Of a stretch of 7,692 nt of DNA, positions 965 through 7,692 are shown piece after piece. Made by a program: the position numbers and the translations under genes. The notes under the pieces were generated by a model, which was not told the DNA's origin, did no database searches, and saw nothing but the letters and a program-made list of their open reading frames with translations. This DNA comes from a virus (taxonomy: Duplodnaviria > Heunggongvirae > Uroviricota > Caudoviricetes), in IMG/VR virus record IMGVR_UViG_2579778773_000006; one strand, given 5' to 3'. Position 1 is the first letter of the stretch. Each line of letters begins with the position of its first letter.

Positions 965-993
965 AGGCGGGCTGATTGCCCGCCTTTTCTTTA
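965..993 (+). terminator. Rho-independent (intrinsic) terminator downstream of the cargo gene
   Basis: Perfect 8-bp GC-rich stem AGGCGGGC (965-972) / GCCCGCCT (978-985) with 5-nt loop TGATT, followed directly by the T-rich tract TTTTCTTTAT (985-994). Confidence 0.6.
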
Positions 994-1088: not shown

Positions 1089-2279
1089 ATGAGTGACTAT
1101 CATCACGGCGTGCAGGTGCTGGAGATTAACGACGGCACCCGCGTCATTTCCACCGTATCCACTGCCATTGTCGGCATGGTCTGCACGGCCAGCGATGCGG
1201 ATGCGGAAACCTTCCCCCTCAATAAACCGGTGCTGATTACCAATGTGCAGAGCGCAATTGCAAAGGCTGGTAAAAAAGGCACGCTGGCGGCATCGTTGCA
1301 GGCCATCGCCGACCAGTCAAAACCGGTCACCGTTGTCGTGCGTGTGGAAGACGGCACCGGCGACGACGAGGAAACGAAACTCGCGCAGACCGTTTCCAAT
1401 ATCATCGGCACCACCGACGAAAACGGTCAGTACACCGGACTGAAAGCCCTGATGGGGGCGGAGTCGGTTACCGGTGTTAAACCGCGTATTCTCGGTGTGC
1501 CGGGACTGGACACCAAAGAGGTGGCGGTTGCACTGGCATCAGTCTGTCAGAAGCTGCGCGCTTTCGGGTATATCAGCGCATGGGGCTGTAAAACCATTTC
1601 CGAGGTGAAAGCCTACCGCCAGAATTTCAGCCAGCGTGAGCTGATGGTCATCTGGCCGGATTTCCTCGCATGGGATACGGTCGCCAGTACCACCGCCACC
1701 GCGTATGCCACCGCCCGTGCGCTGGGCCTGCGCGCTAAAATCGACCAGGAGCAGGGCTGGCATAAAACGCTGTCCAATGTCGGGGTGAACGGTGTTACCG
1801 GCATCAGCGCATCCGTCTTCTGGGATTTGCAGGAGTCCGGCACCGATGCTGACCTGCTTAACGAGTCAGGCGTCACTACGCTGATTCGCCGCGACGGTTT
1901 CCGCTTCTGGGGTAACCGTACCTGCTCCGATGACCCGCTGTTCCTCTTTGAAAACTACACCCGCACCGCGCAGGTGCTGGCCGACTCGATGGCTGAGGCG
2001 CACATGTGGGCGGTGGACAAGCCCATCACTGCAACGCTGATTCGCGACATCGTTGACGGCATCAATGCCAAATTCCGTGAGCTGAAAACAAACGGCTATA
2101 TCGTGGATGCGACCTGCTGGTTCAGCGAAGAATCCAACGATGCGGAAACCCTCAAGGCCGGAAAACTGTATATCGACTATGACTATACCCCGGTGCCTCC
2201 TCTTGAAAACCTGACCCTGCGCCAGCGTATTACCGATAAATACCTGGCAAATCTGGTCACCTCGGTTAACAGCAATTAA
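1089..2279 (+). CDS. FI: Contractile tail sheath protein (P2 gpFI family)
   Basis: 396-aa ORF; the translation (MSDYHHGVQVLEINDGTRVISTV...YLANLVTSVNSN) is recognisable as P2 FI tail sheath, and the length equals P2 gpFI. GGAG Shine-Dalgarno at 1077-1080, 8 nt before the ATG. First gene of the conserved FI-FII-E-T-U-D order. Confidence 0.95.
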   Translation: MSDYHHGVQVLEINDGTRVISTVSTAIVGMVCTASDADAETFPLNKPVLITNVQSAIAKAGKKGTLAASLQAIADQSKPVTVVVRVEDGTGDDEETKLAQTVSNIIGTTDENGQYTGLKALMGAESVTGVKPRILGVPGLDTKEVAVALASVCQKLRAFGYISAWGCKTISEVKAYRQNFSQRELMVIWPDFLAWDTVASTTATAYATARALGLRAKIDQEQGWHKTLSNVGVNGVTGISASVFWDLQESGTDADLLNESGVTTLIRRDGFRFWGNRTCSDDPLFLFENYTRTAQVLADSMAEAHMWAVDKPITATLIRDIVDGINAKFRELKTNGYIVDATCWFSEESNDAETLKAGKLYIDYDYTPVPPLENLTLRQRITDKYLANLVTSVNSN

Positions 2280-2291
2280 GGAGCCTGACCG

Positions 2292-2810
2292 ATGGCAATG
2301 CCGCGCAAACTCAAGTTAATGAACGTCTTTCTGAACGGCTACAGCTATCAGGGCGTTGCAAAGTCCGTCACGCTGCCAAAACTGACCCGTAAGCTCGAAA
2401 ACTATCGCGGTGCGGGGATGAACGGCAGCGCACCGGTAGACCTCGGCCTTGATGACGATGCGCTGTCAATGGAGTGGTCGCTCGGTGGCTTCCCGGATTC
2501 GGTTATCTGGGAGCTTTACGCCGCAACCGGTGTGGATGCCGTACCGATTCGTTTTGCAGGCTCTTACCAGCGCGACGATACCGGCGAAACGGTGGCCGTC
2601 GAGGTGGTCATGCGTGGACGTCAGAAAGAAATCGACACCGGCGAGGGCAAACAGGGAGAAGACACCGAGTCGAAAATCTCCGTGGTCTGCACCTATTTCC
2701 GGCTGACGATGGACGGTAAGGAGCTGGTCGAAATCGACACCATCAACATGATTGAGAAGGTGAACGGCGTCGACCGGCTGGAGCAACACCGCCGCAATAT
2801 TGGCCTGTGA
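2292..2810 (+). CDS. FII: Tail tube protein (P2 gpFII family)
   Basis: 172-aa ORF (MAMPRKLKLMNVFLNGYSYQGVAKSVTLPKL...) recognisable as P2 FII tail tube. AAGGAG RBS at 2277-2282 overlaps the FI stop codon. Lies immediately after the sheath gene as in P2. Confidence 0.95.
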   Translation: MAMPRKLKLMNVFLNGYSYQGVAKSVTLPKLTRKLENYRGAGMNGSAPVDLGLDDDALSMEWSLGGFPDSVIWELYAATGVDAVPIRFAGSYQRDDTGETVAVEVVMRGRQKEIDTGEGKQGEDTESKISVVCTYFRLTMDGKELVEIDTINMIEKVNGVDRLEQHRRNIGL

Positions 2811-2817
2811 TTTTCAT

Positions 2818-2838
2818 CCGGTCAGCCTGGCTGACCGG
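2818..2838 (+). other. GC-rich stem-loop in the FII-E intergenic region (possible mRNA stability element or partial attenuator; not a canonical terminator)
   Basis: CCGGTCAGC (2818-2826) pairs with GCTGACCGG (2830-2838) around a 3-nt loop (9-bp perfect stem). The downstream sequence TTAACCCCCGATT lacks a U-tract, so efficient intrinsic termination is unlikely. Confidence 0.35.
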
Positions 2839-2867
2839 TTAACCCCCGATTCAGAAGTGAGAAAACC

Positions 2868-3143
2868 ATGAACAAAGAAAATGTGATTACCCTGGACAAT
2901 CCGGTCAAGCGTGGTGAGCAGGTCATCGAACAGGTCACGCTGATGAAACCCAATGCCGGGACGCTGCGCGGTGTCAGTCTGGCTGCGGTCGCGAACTCCG
3001 AAGTCGATGCACTGATTAAGGTGCTGCCGCGCATGACGGCACCGATGCTGACCGAGCAGGAAGTTGCCGCGCTGGAACTGCCTGACCTTGTGGCGCTGGC
3101 CGGTAAGGTGGTCGGTTTTTTGTCGCCGAACTCGGTGCAGTGA
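2868..3143 (+). CDS. E: Tail assembly chaperone gpE (zero-frame product)
   Basis: 91-aa ORF (MNKENVITLDNPVKRGEQVIEQVTLMKPNAG...) sits between the tube and tape-measure genes as in P2. Length matches P2 gpE. It contains the slippery run near its 3' end. Confidence 0.9.
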   Translation: MNKENVITLDNPVKRGEQVIEQVTLMKPNAGTLRGVSLAAVANSEVDALIKVLPRMTAPMLTEQEVAALELPDLVALAGKVVGFLSPNSVQ

Positions 3144-3295
3144 CGTTCCCGAAAAATCTCTCGGTCGATGACCTGATGGCGGATGTGGCAGTGATATTTC
3201 ACTGGCCGCCATCAGAACTGTATCCCATGAGCCTGACCGAACTCATCACATGGCGCGAAAAGGCGCTCCGGCGAAGCGGAAACACGAATGAGTAA
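2868..3295 (+). CDS. E+E': Tail assembly chaperone frameshift product gpE+E' (made by -1 frameshift near 3119-3122)
   Basis: Shifting -1 at the TTTTTTG site gives the continuation ...VAELGAVTFPKNLSVDDLMADVAVIFHWPPSELYPMSLTELITWREKALRRSGNTNE, ending at TAA 3293-3295. The predicted fusion is 142 aa, the length known for P2 E+E'. The arrangement parallels the G/GT chaperone frameshift conserved upstream of tape-measure genes. Confidence 0.7.
3114..3122 (+). promoter_or_regulatory. Programmed -1 ribosomal frameshift slippery site (G GTT TTT TG) for E -> E+E'
   Basis: A T6 run (3116-3121) lies within GGT-TTT-TTG in the E frame, 7 codons before the E stop. The -1 frame is open from here to TAA at 3293-3295. 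Confidence 0.7.
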
Positions 3296-5735
3296 CAATG
3301 TAAAATTACAGGTATTGCTCAGGGCTGTTGACCAGGCATCCCGCCCGTTTAAATCCATCCGCACAGCGAGTAAGTCGCTGTCGGGGGATATCCGGGAAAC
3401 ACAAAAATCACTGCGCGAGCTGAACGGTCACGCATCCCGTATTGAGGGATTCCGCAAGACCAGTGCACAGCTCGCCGTGACTGGTCATGCACTTGAAAAG
3501 GCTCGGCAGGAAGCCGAAGCCCTTGCCACACAGTTTAAAAACACCGAACGTCCGACCCGTGCTCAGGCGAAAGTGCTGGAATCCGCAAAGCGTGCGGCGG
3601 AGGACTTACAGGCGAAATATAACCGCCTGACGGATTCCGTTAAACGCCAGCAGCGGGAACTGGCCGCTGTGGGAATTAATACCCGCAATCTTGCACATGA
3701 TGAGCAGGGGCTGAAAAACCGTATCAGTGAAACCACCGCACAGCTTAATCGTCAGCGCGACGCACTGGCGCGTGTCAGTGCGCAACAGGCAAAACTTAAC
3801 GCAGTAAAACAGCGTTATCAGGCCGGAAAGGAACTGGCCGGAAATATGGCCTCAGTGGGCGCTGCCGGTGTGGGGATTGCGGCGGCGGGAACGATGGCCG
3901 GAGTTAAGCTGCTGATGCCCGGTTATGAGTTTGCGCAGAAAAACTCAGAATTGCAGGCCGTGCTAGGAGTGGCAAAAGACTCCGCCGAAATGACCGCACT
4001 CCGCAAGCAGGCGCGCCAGCTCGGCGACAATACCGCCGCCTCAGCGGATGATGCGGCCAGTGCACAGATAATCATCGCGAAAGCGGGTGGGGATGTTGAT
4101 GCCATTCAGGCGGCAACACCGGTCACGCTGAATATGGCGCTGGCGAACCGCCGCACGATGGAAGAAAACGCCGCCCTGCTGATGGGGATGAAATCCGCCT
4201 TTCAGCTTTCAAACGATAAGGTCGCTCATATCGGGGATGTTCTCTCCATGACGATGAACAAAACCGCCGCCGATTTTGACGGCATGAGCGATGCGCTGAC
4301 CTATGCCGCACCTGTGGCAAAAAATGCCGGTGTCAGCATTGAAGAAACCGCCGCAATGGTCGGGGCGCTGCATGATGCAAAAATCACAGGCTCAATGGCG
4401 GGGACGGGAAGCCGTGCCGTGTTAAGCCGCCTGCAGGCACCGACGGGAAAAGCATGGGATGCACTCAAAGAGCTTGGCGTGAAAACCTCAGACAGCAAGG
4501 GAAACACCCGGCCAATATTTACCATTCTGAAAGAAATGCAGGCCAGTTTTGAGAAAAACCGGCTCGGTACTGCCCAGCAGGCTGAATACATGAAAACCAT
4601 TTTCGGGGAGGAGGCCAGCTCAGCCGCCGCTGTGCTGATGACTGCCGCCTCAACCGGAAAGCTGGACAAACTGACCGCTGCGTTTAAAGCCTCAGACGGG
4701 AAGACCGCCGAGCTGGTAAATATCATGCAGGACAACCTCGGCGGTGACTTTAAGGAGTTTCAGTCCGCTTATGAGGCGGTGGGGACTGACCTGTTTGACC
4801 AGCAGGAAGGCGCGCTGCGTAAGCTCACGCAGACGGCCACAAAGTATGTGTTAAAACTCGACGGCTGGATACAGAAAAACAAATCACTGGCGTCAACCAT
4901 TGGCCTCATTGCCGGTGGCGCGCTGGCGCTTACTGGCATCATCGGTGCAATTGGTCTTGTTGCCTGGCCGGTTATCACCGGCATCAATGCCATCATCGCG
5001 GCAGCAGGCGCAATGGGGGCAATCTTCACGACGGTTGGCAGTGCTGTTATGACGGCCATCGGGGCGATTAGCTGGCCGGTTGTGGCCGTGGTGGCCGCCA
5101 TTGTCGCCGGGGCGTTGCTTATCCGTAAATACTGGGAGCCTGTCAGCGCATTCTTTGGCGGTGTGGTTGAAGGGCTGAAAGCGGCATTTGCGCCGGTGGG
5201 GGAACTGTTCACGCCACTGAAGCCGGTGTTTGACTGGCTGGGCGAAAAGTTACAGGCCGCGTGGCAGTGGTTTAAAAACCTGATTGCCCCGGTCAAAGCC
5301 ACCCAGGACACCCTGAACCGTTGCCGTGACACGGGCGTCATGTTCGGGCAGGCACTGGCTGACGCGCTGATGCTGCCGCTTAATGCGTTCAACAAACTGC
5401 GCAGCGGCATTGACTGGGTACTGGAAAAGCTCGGGGTCATCAACAAAGAGTCAGACACACTTGACCAGACCGCCGCCAGAACTCATGCCGCCACATATGG
5501 CACCGGTGGTTATATTCCGGCGACCAGCTCTTATGCAGGCTATCAGGCTTATCAGCCGGTTACGGCACCGGCTGGCCGCTCTTATGTAGACCAGAGTAAA
5601 AACGAATATCACATTAACCTGACGGGTGGTTCTGCGCCGGGAACACAGCTTGACCGCCAGTTACAGGATGCGCTCGAAAAATACGAGCGGGATAAACGTG
5701 CGCGCGCCCGTGCCAGCATGATGCATGACGGTTAA
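3288..5735 (+). CDS. T: Tail tape measure protein (P2 gpT family)
   Basis: 815-aa ORF, equal in length to P2 gpT. The N-terminal region is charged and coiled-coil-like (Q/R/A/L/K-rich). The C-terminal part has Gly/Ala/Ile-rich hydrophobic segments (e.g. LIAGGALALTGIIGAIGLVAWPVITGINAIIAAAGAMGAIF) typical of tape measure proteins. The start overlaps the E' terminus by 8 nt. Confidence 0.93.
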   Translation: MSNNVKLQVLLRAVDQASRPFKSIRTASKSLSGDIRETQKSLRELNGHASRIEGFRKTSAQLAVTGHALEKARQEAEALATQFKNTERPTRAQAKVLESAKRAAEDLQAKYNRLTDSVKRQQRELAAVGINTRNLAHDEQGLKNRISETTAQLNRQRDALARVSAQQAKLNAVKQRYQAGKELAGNMASVGAAGVGIAAAGTMAGVKLLMPGYEFAQKNSELQAVLGVAKDSAEMTALRKQARQLGDNTAASADDAASAQIIIAKAGGDVDAIQAATPVTLNMALANRRTMEENAALLMGMKSAFQLSNDKVAHIGDVLSMTMNKTAADFDGMSDALTYAAPVAKNAGVSIEETAAMVGALHDAKITGSMAGTGSRAVLSRLQAPTGKAWDALKELGVKTSDSKGNTRPIFTILKEMQASFEKNRLGTAQQAEYMKTIFGEEASSAAAVLMTAASTGKLDKLTAAFKASDGKTAELVNIMQDNLGGDFKEFQSAYEAVGTDLFDQQEGALRKLTQTATKYVLKLDGWIQKNKSLASTIGLIAGGALALTGIIGAIGLVAWPVITGINAIIAAAGAMGAIFTTVGSAVMTAIGAISWPVVAVVAAIVAGALLIRKYWEPVSAFFGGVVEGLKAAFAPVGELFTPLKPVFDWLGEKLQAAWQWFKNLIAPVKATQDTLNRCRDTGVMFGQALADALMLPLNAFNKLRSGIDWVLEKLGVINKESDTLDQTAARTHAATYGTGGYIPATSSYAGYQAYQPVTAPAGRSYVDQSKNEYHINLTGGSAPGTQLDRQLQDALEKYERDKRARARASMMHDG

Positions 5736-5749
5736 GGAGGTGACGAAAA

Positions 5750-6229
5750 ATGATGCTCGCGTTAGGTATGTTTGTTTTTATGCGCCAGACGCTGCCACAC
5801 CAGACCATGCAGCGTGAATCAGATTATCGCTGGCCGTCAAATTCCCGTATCGGTAAACGGGATGCCTTTCAGTTTCTCGGTGTTGGCGAGGAAAACATCA
5901 CGCTTGCCGGTGTGCTTTATCCCGAGCTGACCGGCGGAAAGCTGACGATGACCACGCTCAGGCTGATGGCAGAGGAAGGTCGGGCGTGGCCGTTGCTGGA
6001 TGGCACCGGCATGATTTACGGCATGTATGTCATCAGCAGGGTGAGTGAAACAGGGAGTATTTTCTTTGCAGACGGCACACCCCGAAAAATTGATTTTACG
6101 CTGTCGCTCACCCGCGTTGATGAATCACTGGCCGCGCTTTATGGCGATATCGGTAAACAGGCGGAATCGCTCATCGGTAAGGCTGGCAGTATGTCGACCA
6201 GATTCACGGGTATGACGGGGGCGGGATAA
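5750..6229 (+). CDS. U: Tail protein gpU
   Basis: 159-aa ORF (MMLALGMFVFMRQTLPHQTMQRESDYRWP...) at the position and length of P2 gpU. Strong AGGAGGTGA RBS (5734-5742), 7 nt before the ATG. Confidence 0.9.
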   Translation: MMLALGMFVFMRQTLPHQTMQRESDYRWPSNSRIGKRDAFQFLGVGEENITLAGVLYPELTGGKLTMTTLRLMAEEGRAWPLLDGTGMIYGMYVISRVSETGSIFFADGTPRKIDFTLSLTRVDESLAALYGDIGKQAESLIGKAGSMSTRFTGMTGAG

Positions 6230-7392
6230 TGCTGGATGCACTGACATTTGATGCAGGCAGTACGCTGACGCCGGATTACATGCTGATGCTCGACAGCAGG
6301 GATATTACCGGCAATATCAGCGACCGTCTGATGAGCATGACCCTGACGGATAACCGGGGCTTTGAGGCTGACCAGCTTGATATTGAACTGAACGATGCCG
6401 ACGGGCAGGTCGGACTGCCGGTTCGTGGCGCTGTCCTGACGGTGTATATCGGCTGGAAAGGTTTTGCCCTGGTATGCAAAGGGAAATTCACCGTTGATGA
6501 GGTTGAACACAGGGGCGCGCCGGATGTGGTCACTATCCGCGCCCGGAGTGCAGATTTTCGCGGGACGCTCAATTCCCGCCGTGAAGGCTCCTGGCATGAC
6601 ATCACGCTCGGTGCGATTGTTGAGGCGATAGCCTCCCGTAACAGGCTGGAAGCCAGTGTTGCTCCGTCACTGGCCGGAATAAAAATTCCACACATCGACC
6701 AGTCGCAGGAGTCCGATGCGAAATTCCTGACCCGCCTTGCTGAACGCAACGGCGGTGAGGTGTCGGTAAAAATGGGAAAACTGTTGTTTCTCAAGGCGGG
6801 GCAGGGGGTGACGGCCAGCGGTAAAAAAATCCCGCAGATTACCATCACCCGCAGCGATGGCGACCGACATCATTTTGCGATTGCTGACCGTGGAGCCTAC
6901 ACCGGCGTAACGGCAAAGTGGTTACACACCAAAGACCCGAAGCCACAAAAGCAGAAGGTAAAACTGAAACGCAAAAAGAAAGAGAAACACCTGCGCGCAC
7001 TGGAGCACCCGAAAGCGAAACCGGTCACGCAGAAGAAAGCACCAAAAGTACCGGAAGCGCGCGAAGGTGAATACATGGCCGGTGAGGATGACAATGTTTT
7101 TGCCCTGACCACGGTATATGCCACGAAAGCGCAGGCCATGCGCGCCGCTCAGGCGAAGTGGGATAAACTGCAACGGGGCGTTGCGGAGTTCTCCATCAGC
7201 CTGGCTACCGGTCGGGCAGATATTTACACGGAAACACCGGTTAAGGTGTCAGGCTTTAAGCGCGTCATAGACGAGCAGGACTGGACCATCACTAAGGTGA
7301 CACATTTTCTGAATAATAGCGGCTTCACGACGTCCTTAGAGCTTGAGGTCAGGCTTTCTGATGTGGAGTACGAAACAGAAGATGATGAGTGA
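6229..7392 (+). CDS. D: Tail/baseplate protein gpD (late control gene D family)
   Basis: 387-aa ORF, equal in length to P2 gpD. The start ATG overlaps the U stop (TAATG at 6227-6231), suggesting translational coupling. Last structural gene before ogr, as in P2. Confidence 0.9.
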   Translation: MLDALTFDAGSTLTPDYMLMLDSRDITGNISDRLMSMTLTDNRGFEADQLDIELNDADGQVGLPVRGAVLTVYIGWKGFALVCKGKFTVDEVEHRGAPDVVTIRARSADFRGTLNSRREGSWHDITLGAIVEAIASRNRLEASVAPSLAGIKIPHIDQSQESDAKFLTRLAERNGGEVSVKMGKLLFLKAGQGVTASGKKIPQITITRSDGDRHHFAIADRGAYTGVTAKWLHTKDPKPQKQKVKLKRKKKEKHLRALEHPKAKPVTQKKAPKVPEAREGEYMAGEDDNVFALTTVYATKAQAMRAAQAKWDKLQRGVAEFSISLATGRADIYTETPVKVSGFKRVIDEQDWTITKVTHFLNNSGFTTSLELEVRLSDVEYETEDDE

Positions 7393-7473: not shown

Positions 7474-7692
7474 ATGTTTCATTGTCCTTTATGCCAGCAT
7501 GCCGCACATGCGCGTACAAGTCGCTATATCACTGACACGACAAAAGAGCGTTATCACCAGTGTCAGAACGTGAATTGCAGCGCCACGTTCATCACTTATG
7601 AGTCGGTACAGCGATACATCGTGAAGCCGGGAGAGATCCACGCCGTAAGGCCGCACCCGTTGCCATCAGGACAGCAAATTATGTGGATGTAA
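7474..7692 (+). CDS. ogr: Late gene transcriptional activator Ogr (zinc-finger protein)
   Basis: 72-aa product MFHCPLCQHAAHARTSRYITDTTKERYHQCQNVNCSATFITYESVQRYIVKPGE... with C-x2-C ... C-x4-C zinc-binding cysteines, recognisable as P2 Ogr. AGGTG RBS at 7463-7467, 6 nt before ATG 7474. The ORF-track entry starting at 7411 is a 21-codon in-frame upstream extension with no RBS and is not used. Confidence 0.9.
   Translation: MFHCPLCQHAAHARTSRYITDTTKERYHQCQNVNCSATFITYESVQRYIVKPGEIHAVRPHPLPSGQQIMWM

What the first reader, a model, noticed from the sequence alone, without database searches (positions are those of the whole stretch)
2811..2867. Stable GC-rich hairpin between tail tube gene FII and chaperone gene E
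A 9-bp perfect stem (2818-2826 / 2830-2838) sits in the 57-nt FII-E spacer with no following U-tract. Sheath and tube proteins are needed in far higher copy number than E, E+E', T, U and D. A partial terminator or 3' stabilising hairpin at this point could set that differential stoichiometry. The E ribosome-binding site is also weak (GTGAG-like), consistent with lower expression downstream.
Basis: partly seen in the sequence, partly recalled or inferred. Interest (0 to 1): 0.4.

Follow-up and report, generated by a model that had tools for sequence, protein, structure and literature searches.

The report
Conserved RNA hairpin after tail-tube gene
The hairpin is real and strongly conserved as an RNA structure just after the tail-tube gene of P2-like phages, and its counterpart in sister phage 186 is already annotated as a leaky transcription terminator, so this is a sound but largely known feature.

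Summary
It is a perfect 9-bp GC-rich stem (2818-2826/2830-2838) with a 3-nt loop, in the 57-nt FII-E spacer. No U-tract follows it (TTAACCCC). It is the only such hairpin in the window and far exceeds chance.

The window is a P2-type FI-FII-E-E'-T-U-D tail operon. The alignable hairpin of phage 186 is annotated in GenBank as "tI; partial terminator of pJ transcript". The P2 RefSeq record annotates nothing in this spacer.

Of 77 distinct downstream sequences from P2-like phages, 68 have a strong hairpin starting 5-17 nt (median 7) after the tube stop codon. Only 3.9% of control coding windows do. Stem sequences differ between lineages, with compensatory changes (U-A, U.G, C-G). G.U wobbles outnumber A.C mismatches 32 to 1, so selection acts on the sense-strand RNA.

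Best reading: a leaky intra-operon attenuator that also caps and stabilises FI-FII message. This would give more sheath and tube mRNA than E-T-U-D mRNA. The split between termination and stabilisation is unresolved in silico. The "weak E ribosome-binding site" argument is only partly supported. Novelty is low.

The parts
1089..2279 (+). FI, tail sheath gene (396 aa), first gene of the F operon
   Evidence: ORF list. The window is 99% identical to Peduovirus P2. P2 RefSeq annotation of FI and of the F operon transcription start site.
2292..2810 (+). FII, tail tube gene (172 aa); stop codon TGA at 2808-2810
   Evidence: 100% identity to P2-type tube proteins.
2811..2867 (+). FII-E intercistronic spacer, 57 nt. 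It is the only sizeable spacer inside the operon: FI-FII is 12 nt, T-U is 14 nt, and E'/T and U/D overlap.
2818..2838 (+). RNA hairpin: 5' arm 2818-2826 (CCGGUCAGC), loop 2827-2829 (CUG), 3' arm 2830-2838 (GCUGACCGG). It is the orthologue of phage 186 tI.
   Evidence: -16.5 kcal/mol; unique in the window; 186 annotation and sequence; covariation; sense-strand G.U asymmetry.
2839..2846 (+). Post-stem tail UUAACCCC: two proximal U then A/C, so not a canonical U-tract. The TTA(A)CCC motif is shared with the 186 and Klebsiella relatives.
2854..2862 (+). Shine-Dalgarno-like GAAGUGAGA of gene E (SD:anti-SD -5.0 kcal/mol). The hairpin ends 29 nt before the ATG, so this site is not sequestered by it.
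2868..3143 (+). E, tail assembly chaperone (91 aa). E+E' is made by a -1 frameshift at the T-run near 3116-3123.
   Evidence: (P2 annotation of E, E+E' and the frameshift site).
3288..7392 (+). Downstream low-copy genes T (3288-5735), U (5750-6229) and D (6229-7392), which must be transcribed by read-through of the hairpin
   Evidence: single annotated TSS for FI..D; F-operon terminator annotated after ogr. One search gives the copy numbers.

Best explanation
The hairpin forms in the sense-strand late mRNA made from the P_F promoter, 7 nt after the tail-tube (FII) stop codon. It is the P2-type orthologue of phage 186 'tI'. It most likely acts as a leaky intra-operon attenuator. A fraction of RNA polymerases terminate at or just after the stem. 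Efficiency stays low for two reasons: only two U follow the stem, and ribosomes finishing FII sit close enough to the stem to hinder its folding. Transcripts that end there, by termination or by later processing, carry the GC-rich hairpin at their 3' end and are protected from 3'-to-5' exonucleases. The net effect is more FI-FII (sheath and tube, about 190 copies per virion) message than E-T-U-D (3-6 copies, or chaperones) message from a single promoter.

Shown here: the existence of the structure, its improbability by chance, its conservation and covariation, its RNA strand, its fixed position, and the 186 annotation.

Inferred: that it lowers downstream mRNA in P2, the share due to termination versus stabilisation, and the ribosome effect.
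For: - Structure and chance.
- Orthology to annotated 186 tI, 'partial terminator of pJ transcript'. The 5' arm is identical, the 3' arm has one A-to-G change giving U.G, and the flanks are alignable.
- Family-wide presence: 68 of 77 distinct sequences have a hairpin of -12 kcal/mol or better starting 5-17 nt (median 7) after the tube stop. Only 3.9% of control 60-nt windows in the tube CDS do.
- Distant lineages (Pseudomonas, Burkholderia, Ralstonia, Salmonella SopEPhi, Klebsiella, Xanthomonas) have unrelated stem sequences at the same place.
- Covariation on a structure-blind MAFFT alignment: 86.9% of cells are paired versus 12-43% for slid controls. No shuffle of 500 reaches the observed percentage paired, covariation score or number of double-change cells. 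Pair 18-35 is UG 26, CG 18, UA 10. Pair 14-39 is CG 42, GC 7, AU 2. Pair 15-38 is CG 50, UA 6.
- RNAalifold recovers the same stem, with 4 of its 6 pairs carrying compensatory changes.
- Sense-strand RNA selection: in the core stem there are 32 G.U against 1 A.C. The + strand MFE is better in 34 sequences against 8, Wilcoxon p = 2.5e-5.
- Terminator character in relatives: 12 of 68 have at least 5 T in the 8-nt tail. FoX5 has an annotated rho-independent terminator at the same junction.
- Need for read-through: P2 annotation gives one TSS for FI..D and places the operon terminator after ogr.
- Stoichiometry.
- Ribosome repression of terminators placed about 5 bp after a stop codon (termination efficiency from about 90% to under 10%): Li et al. 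2016, PMC4824070.
Against: - The P2-type tail has only 2 U in 8, so it fails a standard intrinsic-terminator definition. A hairpin alone usually terminates E. coli RNA polymerase poorly (established knowledge).
- The P2 RefSeq record annotates nothing in this spacer.
- I could not read the experimental basis of the 186 note. Xue and Egan 1995 and Portelli et al. 1998 are not held in the library, so 'partial terminator' could rest on a shorter transcript that also fits processing plus stabilisation.
- No RNA-seq or Northern data for P2 were available.
- A few relatives lack the hairpin altogether (Burkholderia phage Mana, L067, Vibrio MAR), so it is not indispensable.
- The sequences counted are phylogenetically related, so the counts overstate the number of independent events.
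Confidence: 0.6

Rival explanations
1. Pure mRNA decay barrier. RNA polymerase does not terminate here. The full-length FI..D(ogr) transcript is cleaved endonucleolytically downstream of the hairpin. The hairpin then blocks 3'-to-5' exonucleases, so the FI-FII segment outlives the E-T-U-D segment. This is segmental differential stability, as at malE-malF REP elements or the Rhodobacter puf intercistronic hairpins (from established knowledge).
For: - The hairpin is conserved whether or not a U-rich tail follows. The modal tail has 2-3 T of 8, and P2, 186 and the Klebsiella relatives have UUAACCCC.
- Selection is on sense-strand RNA.
- The position immediately after the stop codon leaves little unprotected RNA.
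Against: - The 186 orthologue is annotated as a partial terminator, not a processing site.
- Several lineages have acquired U-rich tails typical of real terminators.
- No conserved RNase E-type motif was established downstream.
- No transcript data were available.
Confidence: 0.22
2. Translational insulator. The stable hairpin in an unusually long spacer stops ribosomes that finish the heavily translated FII from sliding on and re-initiating at E. This uncouples E translation from FII. Elsewhere in the operon, genes are joined by 12-14-nt spacers or by overlaps that favour coupling.
For: - FII-E is the only long spacer in the operon.
- The distance from hairpin to E ATG is fairly constant at about 24-39 nt, leaving the SD free.
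- The E SD is modest at -5.0 kcal/mol.
Against: - There is no direct evidence.
- The hairpin does not sequester the SD.
- The long-range pairing between the 5' flank and the SD seen in the P2 MFE is not conserved: in a permutation test, 113 of 500 permutations were as good.
- This model does not explain why some lineages add U-tracts, or why 186 tI is called a terminator.
Confidence: 0.1
3. DNA-level palindrome (a binding site for a dimeric protein, or a recombination or cruciform site), or a chance inverted repeat with no function.
For: In the window itself the repeat is a perfect palindrome, so both strands fold equally well (-16.5 against -16.9 kcal/mol).
Against: - In relatives, pairing is kept through G.U wobbles that exist only on the sense-strand RNA: 32 G.U against 1 A.C.
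- Stem sequences are unrelated in distant lineages while position and stability are kept, which no sequence-specific DNA-binding site would allow.
- Chance expectation is 0.0018 per spacer.
- The stem (9-12 bp) is too short for an RNase III site (established knowledge).
Confidence: 0.03

Closest known systems
Phage 186 tI, 'partial terminator of pJ transcript' (GenBank U32222, 15906-15932), between tube gene I and E-homologue H
   Same: It sits at the same junction of the same operon. It is alignable: the 5' arm CCGGTCAGC is identical, the 3' arm differs by one base (A to G, giving U.G), and it has the same TTA..CCCCC tail and the same spacing to the downstream ATG.
   Different: The 186 stem is extended by up to 3 outer pairs (UGA/UUA) and its loop is ACT rather than CTG. 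The window copy is all Watson-Crick. The P2 RefSeq copy carries the U.G wobble as 186 does. The P2 copy carries no annotation in RefSeq.
Canonical intrinsic (Rho-independent) terminators, for example the one at window 965-985 after gene G, or the annotated terminator after the tube gene of Xanthomonas phage FoX5
   Same: It has a GC-rich stem of 8-9 bp, a short loop and sense orientation, and lies just after a stop codon.
   Different: The window hairpin lacks the U-tract (2 T of 8, against 6 in FoX5 and TTTCTTTATC at 965-985). It must be read through, because essential genes E, T, U and D lie downstream without a known promoter.
Intercistronic mRNA-stabilising hairpins that set operon stoichiometry (malE-malF REP, Rhodobacter puf) and partial terminators after major structural genes of phages (f1 gene VIII, T7 T-phi after gene 10). 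These examples are from my own knowledge and were not tested here.
   Same: The logic is the same: one promoter, with abundant products upstream of a stable stem-loop and scarce products downstream.
   Different: This is not a REP sequence. It is single-copy in the window and matches no Rfam family. No transcript mapping is available for P2.
P2 'putative transcription attenuator; O operon' (RefSeq 8399-8417)
   Same: It is another annotated intra-operon hairpin in a P2 late operon. This shows that attenuation within late operons is an accepted theme for this phage.
   Different: It lies in a different operon, has an unrelated sequence and sits inside overlapping lysis genes rather than in a spacer.

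Membership tests
Orthologue of phage 186 tI (partial terminator of the pJ/P_F tail operon) | Located between the tail tube gene and the E-type chaperone gene, on the sense strand | tested here: met
Orthologue of phage 186 tI (partial terminator of the pJ/P_F tail operon) | Sequence homology of stem and flanks to 186 15906-15932 | tested here: met
   identical 5' arm, one change in the 3' arm, shared TTA..CCCCC tail.
Orthologue of phage 186 tI (partial terminator of the pJ/P_F tail operon) | Same base-paired structure maintained by compensatory change | tested here: met
Orthologue of phage 186 tI (partial terminator of the pJ/P_F tail operon) | Partial termination of the late transcript in vivo | not testable with these tools
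   No transcript data are available. The primary 186 papers are not held.
Canonical intrinsic (Rho-independent) terminator | GC-rich hairpin with a stem of at least 5 bp and a loop of 3-8 nt | tested here: met
   9 bp, 7 G-C pairs, loop of 3 nt.
Canonical intrinsic (Rho-independent) terminator | U-tract (at least 5 U in the 8 nt after the stem) | tested here: not met
   The tail is UUAACCCC, with 2 U. The site is not listed by the scan. Twelve of 68 relatives do meet this criterion.
Canonical intrinsic (Rho-independent) terminator | Transcript 3' ends map to the U-tract | not testable with these tools
   Needs Term-seq, S1 mapping or in vitro transcription.
REP/BIME-type or other repeated stabiliser elements | Multi-copy repeat with a family consensus | tested here: not met
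   The hairpin is single-copy in the window. No Rfam family matches the region at E <= 1.
3' exonuclease-blocking stabiliser hairpin (functional class) | Stable stem-loop at the 3' boundary of the more abundant mRNA segment, selected on the sense RNA | tested here: met
3' exonuclease-blocking stabiliser hairpin (functional class) | Longer half-life of the upstream segment that depends on the stem | not testable with these tools
   Needs rifampicin-chase measurements with wild-type and stem-mutant phage.

The most novel reading that the evidence does not exclude
The hairpin may be a ribosome-gated valve rather than a fixed-strength attenuator. Across Peduoviridae the stem begins a near-constant 5-8 nt after the tube stop codon, which is within the footprint of a terminating ribosome. 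Under this reading, the hairpin forms (and so causes termination or 3'-end capping) only when no ribosome closely follows RNA polymerase. Read-through into E-T-U-D would then be licensed by ongoing FII translation. The conserved spacing, not just the stem, would be the selected feature.
Probability: 0.2. Interest if true: 0.5.

Novelty: already known. Interest (0 to 1): 0.22.

Why it matters
It shows how a small phage makes about 190 copies of sheath and tube but only 3-6 copies of hub, initiator and tape-measure proteins from one promoter. SD strengths in this operon do not track stoichiometry: low-copy U has the strongest SD. The idea is already recorded for phage 186.

This check adds four things:
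- The P2-type copy, which RefSeq P2 leaves unannotated, is orthologous to 186 tI.
- The structure is maintained by covariation on the sense RNA across the family.
- Its 5-8-nt distance from the stop codon is conserved.
- Lineages vary between U-poor and U-rich tails.

These points are useful for annotating P2-like prophages and tailocins and for engineering tail operons. They are not a new kind of biology.

Tried and rejected
- **Long-range pairing.** The P2 MFE pairs the U-rich 5' flank (2811-2817) with the E SD (2857-2863). I tested this as a possible translational-coupling switch. Duplex energies between each phage's own flank and SD are no better than between flanks and SDs of different phages (113 of 500 permutations were as good). 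Rejected.
- **Rfam.** A search at E <= 1 returned nothing in the region. The only hit is a spurious IRES match inside T.
- **Internal late promoter.** An exact TGT-N12-ACA search found no match anywhere in the window, not even at P_F, so the test is uninformative. The sigma-70 scan shows nothing in the spacer.
- **DNA palindrome or protein site.** Rejected on the G.U against A.C asymmetry.
- **RNase III site.** The stem is too short (established knowledge).
- **Primary literature.** Christie et al. 2002 (DOI and PMC135442) is not held. The 186 papers are only cited, not held. Searches for P2-like RNA-seq or terminator data gave nothing relevant.
- **Other scans.** The viral-contig scan worked.

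Full report
**What the window is.** The ORF map and a blastn search show 99% identity to Peduovirus P2 records. The window is therefore a P2-type late tail operon:
- FI, sheath, 1089-2279
- FII, tube, 2292-2810
- E, 2868-3143, with E' reached by a -1 frameshift
- T, 3288-5735
- U, 5750-6229
- D, 6229-7392
- ogr, 7475-7692

The end of tail-fibre assembly gene G and a canonical terminator at 965-985 lie upstream.

**Check of the observation.** The coordinates are exact.
- The FII stop TGA is at 2808-2810 and the E ATG at 2868, giving a 57-nt spacer.
- The stem is CCGGTCAGC (2818-2826), the loop CTG, and the return arm GCTGACCGG (2830-2838). That is nine Watson-Crick pairs, seven of them G-C.
- The tail is TTAACCCC, so there is no U-tract. 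The terminator scan does not list the site.
- The spacer folds to -18.8 kcal/mol (z = -3.1; 0 of 200 shuffles fold as well). The hairpin alone is -16.5 kcal/mol.
- It is the only perfect hairpin of 9 bp or more in the window. Dinucleotide shuffles give 0.24 per window, or 0.0018 per 57 nt.
- It sits in the only long spacer of the operon. The FI-FII spacer is 12 nt, T-U is 14 nt, and the other junctions overlap.

**Already annotated in the sister phage.** The blastn hit to phage 186 (U32222) carries a feature under the match. At 15906-15932, between tube gene I and E-homologue H, the record reads "terminator; tI; partial terminator of pJ transcript". The 186 sequence is ACCGGTCAGC ACT GCTGGCCGGT TATTACCCCC. 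Its 5' arm is identical to the window's. Its 3' arm has a single A-to-G change that turns the U-A pair into U.G. The tail and the distance to the ATG are the same.

The P2 RefSeq record NC_001895 annotates nothing in the FII-E spacer. It gives one transcription start for "FI, FII, E, E', T, U, D" and places the F-operon terminator after ogr. The RefSeq P2 hairpin carries the U.G variant. The window and most IMG/VR P2-type copies carry U-A.

**Conservation across the family.** I collected 20 phage records with 30-99% tube-protein identity. I added 80 IMG/VR loci with 69-100% identity.
- Of 77 distinct 60-nt segments following the tube stop, 68 contain a simple hairpin of -12 kcal/mol or better.
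- These hairpins start 5-17 nt after the stop, with a median of 7. Sixty-one of the 68 start at 5-8 nt.
- Only 3.9% of 228 control 60-nt windows inside the tube CDS reach the same energy.
- Distant lineages have unrelated stems at the same place:
  - GGCGCGG in SopEPhi and Klebsiella
  - CCGCCGG in Pseudomonas phage Dobby
  - GCCCGCG in Burkholderia
  - CGGCCCGC in Ralstonia
  - GGCGGCGG in Xanthomonas phage FoX5, where it is annotated as a rho-independent terminator
- The true exceptions are Burkholderia phage Mana (24-nt spacer), L067 (30-nt AT-rich spacer) and Vibrio phage MAR (an extra ORF).
- L070 has a single mismatch. L014 and L016 have imperfect or compound structures.
- In L058 the tube stop codon is lost and the ORF reads through a still-recognisable hairpin.

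**Covariation and strand.** I aligned 58 distinct sequences with MAFFT, blind to structure (A2). The 10-pair structure behaves as follows:
- 86.9% of cells are paired, against 12-43% when the 3' partners are slid by 1-3 columns.
- No shuffle of 500 reaches the observed percentage paired, covariation score or number of double-change cells.
- Pair 18-35, which is T2822-A2834 in the window, is UG 26, CG 18, UA 10.
- Pair 14-39 is CG 42, GC 7, AU 2. Pair 15-38 is CG 50, UA 6.

RNAalifold independently recovers the same stem, with compensatory changes at 4 of its 6 pairs.

The seven core pairs hold 32 G.U cells but only 1 A.C cell. An A.C cell would be the wobble if the opposite strand were the folded one. 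The + strand folds better in 34 sequences and the - strand in 8 (Wilcoxon p = 2.5e-5). The selected object is therefore an RNA hairpin in the sense transcript, not a DNA palindrome. These counts are not phylogenetically independent. However, the variants occur in several separate lineages.

**Tail composition.** In the 8 nt after the stem the modal T count is 2-3. Twelve of the 68 have at least 5 T. Examples are FoX5 TTTTTACT, L079-L082 TCTTCTTT, L080 CCCTTTTT and Dobby TTTCTCTC. Across the family the element therefore ranges from textbook intrinsic terminators to U-poor hairpins, with P2 and 186 at the U-poor end.

**Mechanism.** The virion contains 192 gpFI with a matching tube, but only 6 gpU, 3 gpD and a trimeric tape measure (P2 cryo-EM preprint). 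All these genes share one annotated promoter.

SD strength does not follow that hierarchy:

| Gene | SD:anti-SD energy (kcal/mol) |
|---|---|
| FI | -6.1 |
| FII | -8.4 |
| E | -5.0 |
| T | -3.5 |
| U | -13.4 |
| D | -8.6 |

A transcript-level step at the FII-E junction is therefore the simplest way to lower the whole distal block together. I think the most likely mechanism is a leaky terminator that also caps the terminated or processed FI-FII RNA with an exonuclease-resistant 3' hairpin.

Leakiness is expected for two reasons. The first is the poor U-tract. The second is the 7-nt distance from the stop codon. Li et al. (PMC4824070) showed that moving a stop codon from 28 to 5 bp before terminator tR2 cut termination from about 90% to under 10%, because the terminating ribosome prevents hairpin folding.

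These computations cannot tell whether termination contributes at all, or whether the hairpin is only a decay barrier. Those two readings are my first and second hypotheses. A third, less likely reading is that the hairpin insulates E translation from the ribosome flux on FII.

**What did not hold up.**
- The MFE of the P2 spacer adds an outer helix that pairs the U-rich 5' flank with the E SD. This pairing is not conserved.
- The "weak E RBS" argument is only partly true.
- No Rfam family matches the region.

**Comparison and novelty.** The element is an orthologue of 186 tI and works like a partial terminator or stabiliser. It fails the U-tract criterion of a canonical intrinsic terminator, and it is not a REP-type repeat. 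P2 also has an annotated "putative transcription attenuator" in the O operon. I additionally saw an unannotated -46 kcal/mol hairpin followed by UUUUC in the M-L spacer of RefSeq P2. Intra-operon attenuation is thus a recurring design in this phage.

Because the same element is already annotated with the same interpretation in 186, I rate the finding as already known, with low interest. The modest additions are the family-wide covariation, the sense-strand asymmetry and the conserved stop-to-stem spacing. That spacing leaves open a ribosome-gated valve reading, to which I give about 0.2 probability.

Noticed in passing
window 965-985 (+): A canonical intrinsic terminator, AGGCGGGC TGATT GCCCGCCT followed by TTTCTTTATC, lies between gene G (ends 816) and FI. 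It corresponds to the P2 'terminator for V operon' and to 186 t45. The G-FI gap here is only 273 nt, so the window lacks the fun(Z) gene that RefSeq P2 carries between G and FI.
   Followed up: partly
window 3095-3125 (+): The 'terminator-like' hit GCTGGCCGGTAAGGTGGTCGGT + TTTTTTG is the slippery T-run of the E/E' -1 frameshift (P2 site 19685, about window 3123). It is a false positive of the terminator scan. The weak stem lies upstream of the slippery run, not downstream.
   Followed up: partly
window 5553-5574 (+): There is an 8-bp perfect hairpin, CAGCCGGT TACGGC ACCGGCTG, inside the tape-measure gene T. Shuffles give about 0.9 hairpins of 8 bp or more per window, so it may be chance.
   Followed up: no
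L102 (P2 RefSeq NC_001895) 5901-5999: The 99-nt M-L spacer of the O operon folds into a long hairpin (-46.4 kcal/mol) followed by UUUUC. It is not annotated in RefSeq. It is possibly another intra-operon attenuator after the head genes.
   Followed up: no
L058 1715-1790: In this IMG/VR relative the tube stop codon is lost (TAA to TAC). The ORF reads through the hairpin region to a TGA overlapping the E ATG. A bulged version of the hairpin and a TTTTT tail are retained.
   Followed up: no
window 5728-5749 (U upstream region): Gene U (6 copies per virion) has by far the strongest Shine-Dalgarno of the operon, AAGGAGGTGA at -13.4 kcal/mol. This is stronger than sheath or tube, so SD strength does not track stoichiometry in this operon.
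   Followed up: no
window 2834 vs L102 19374-19429: Within P2-type phages the stem position 2822:2834 is polymorphic. It is U-A in the window and in most IMG/VR copies, and U.G in RefSeq P2 and 186. L027 carries a different wobble (C2823 to T).
   Followed up: yes
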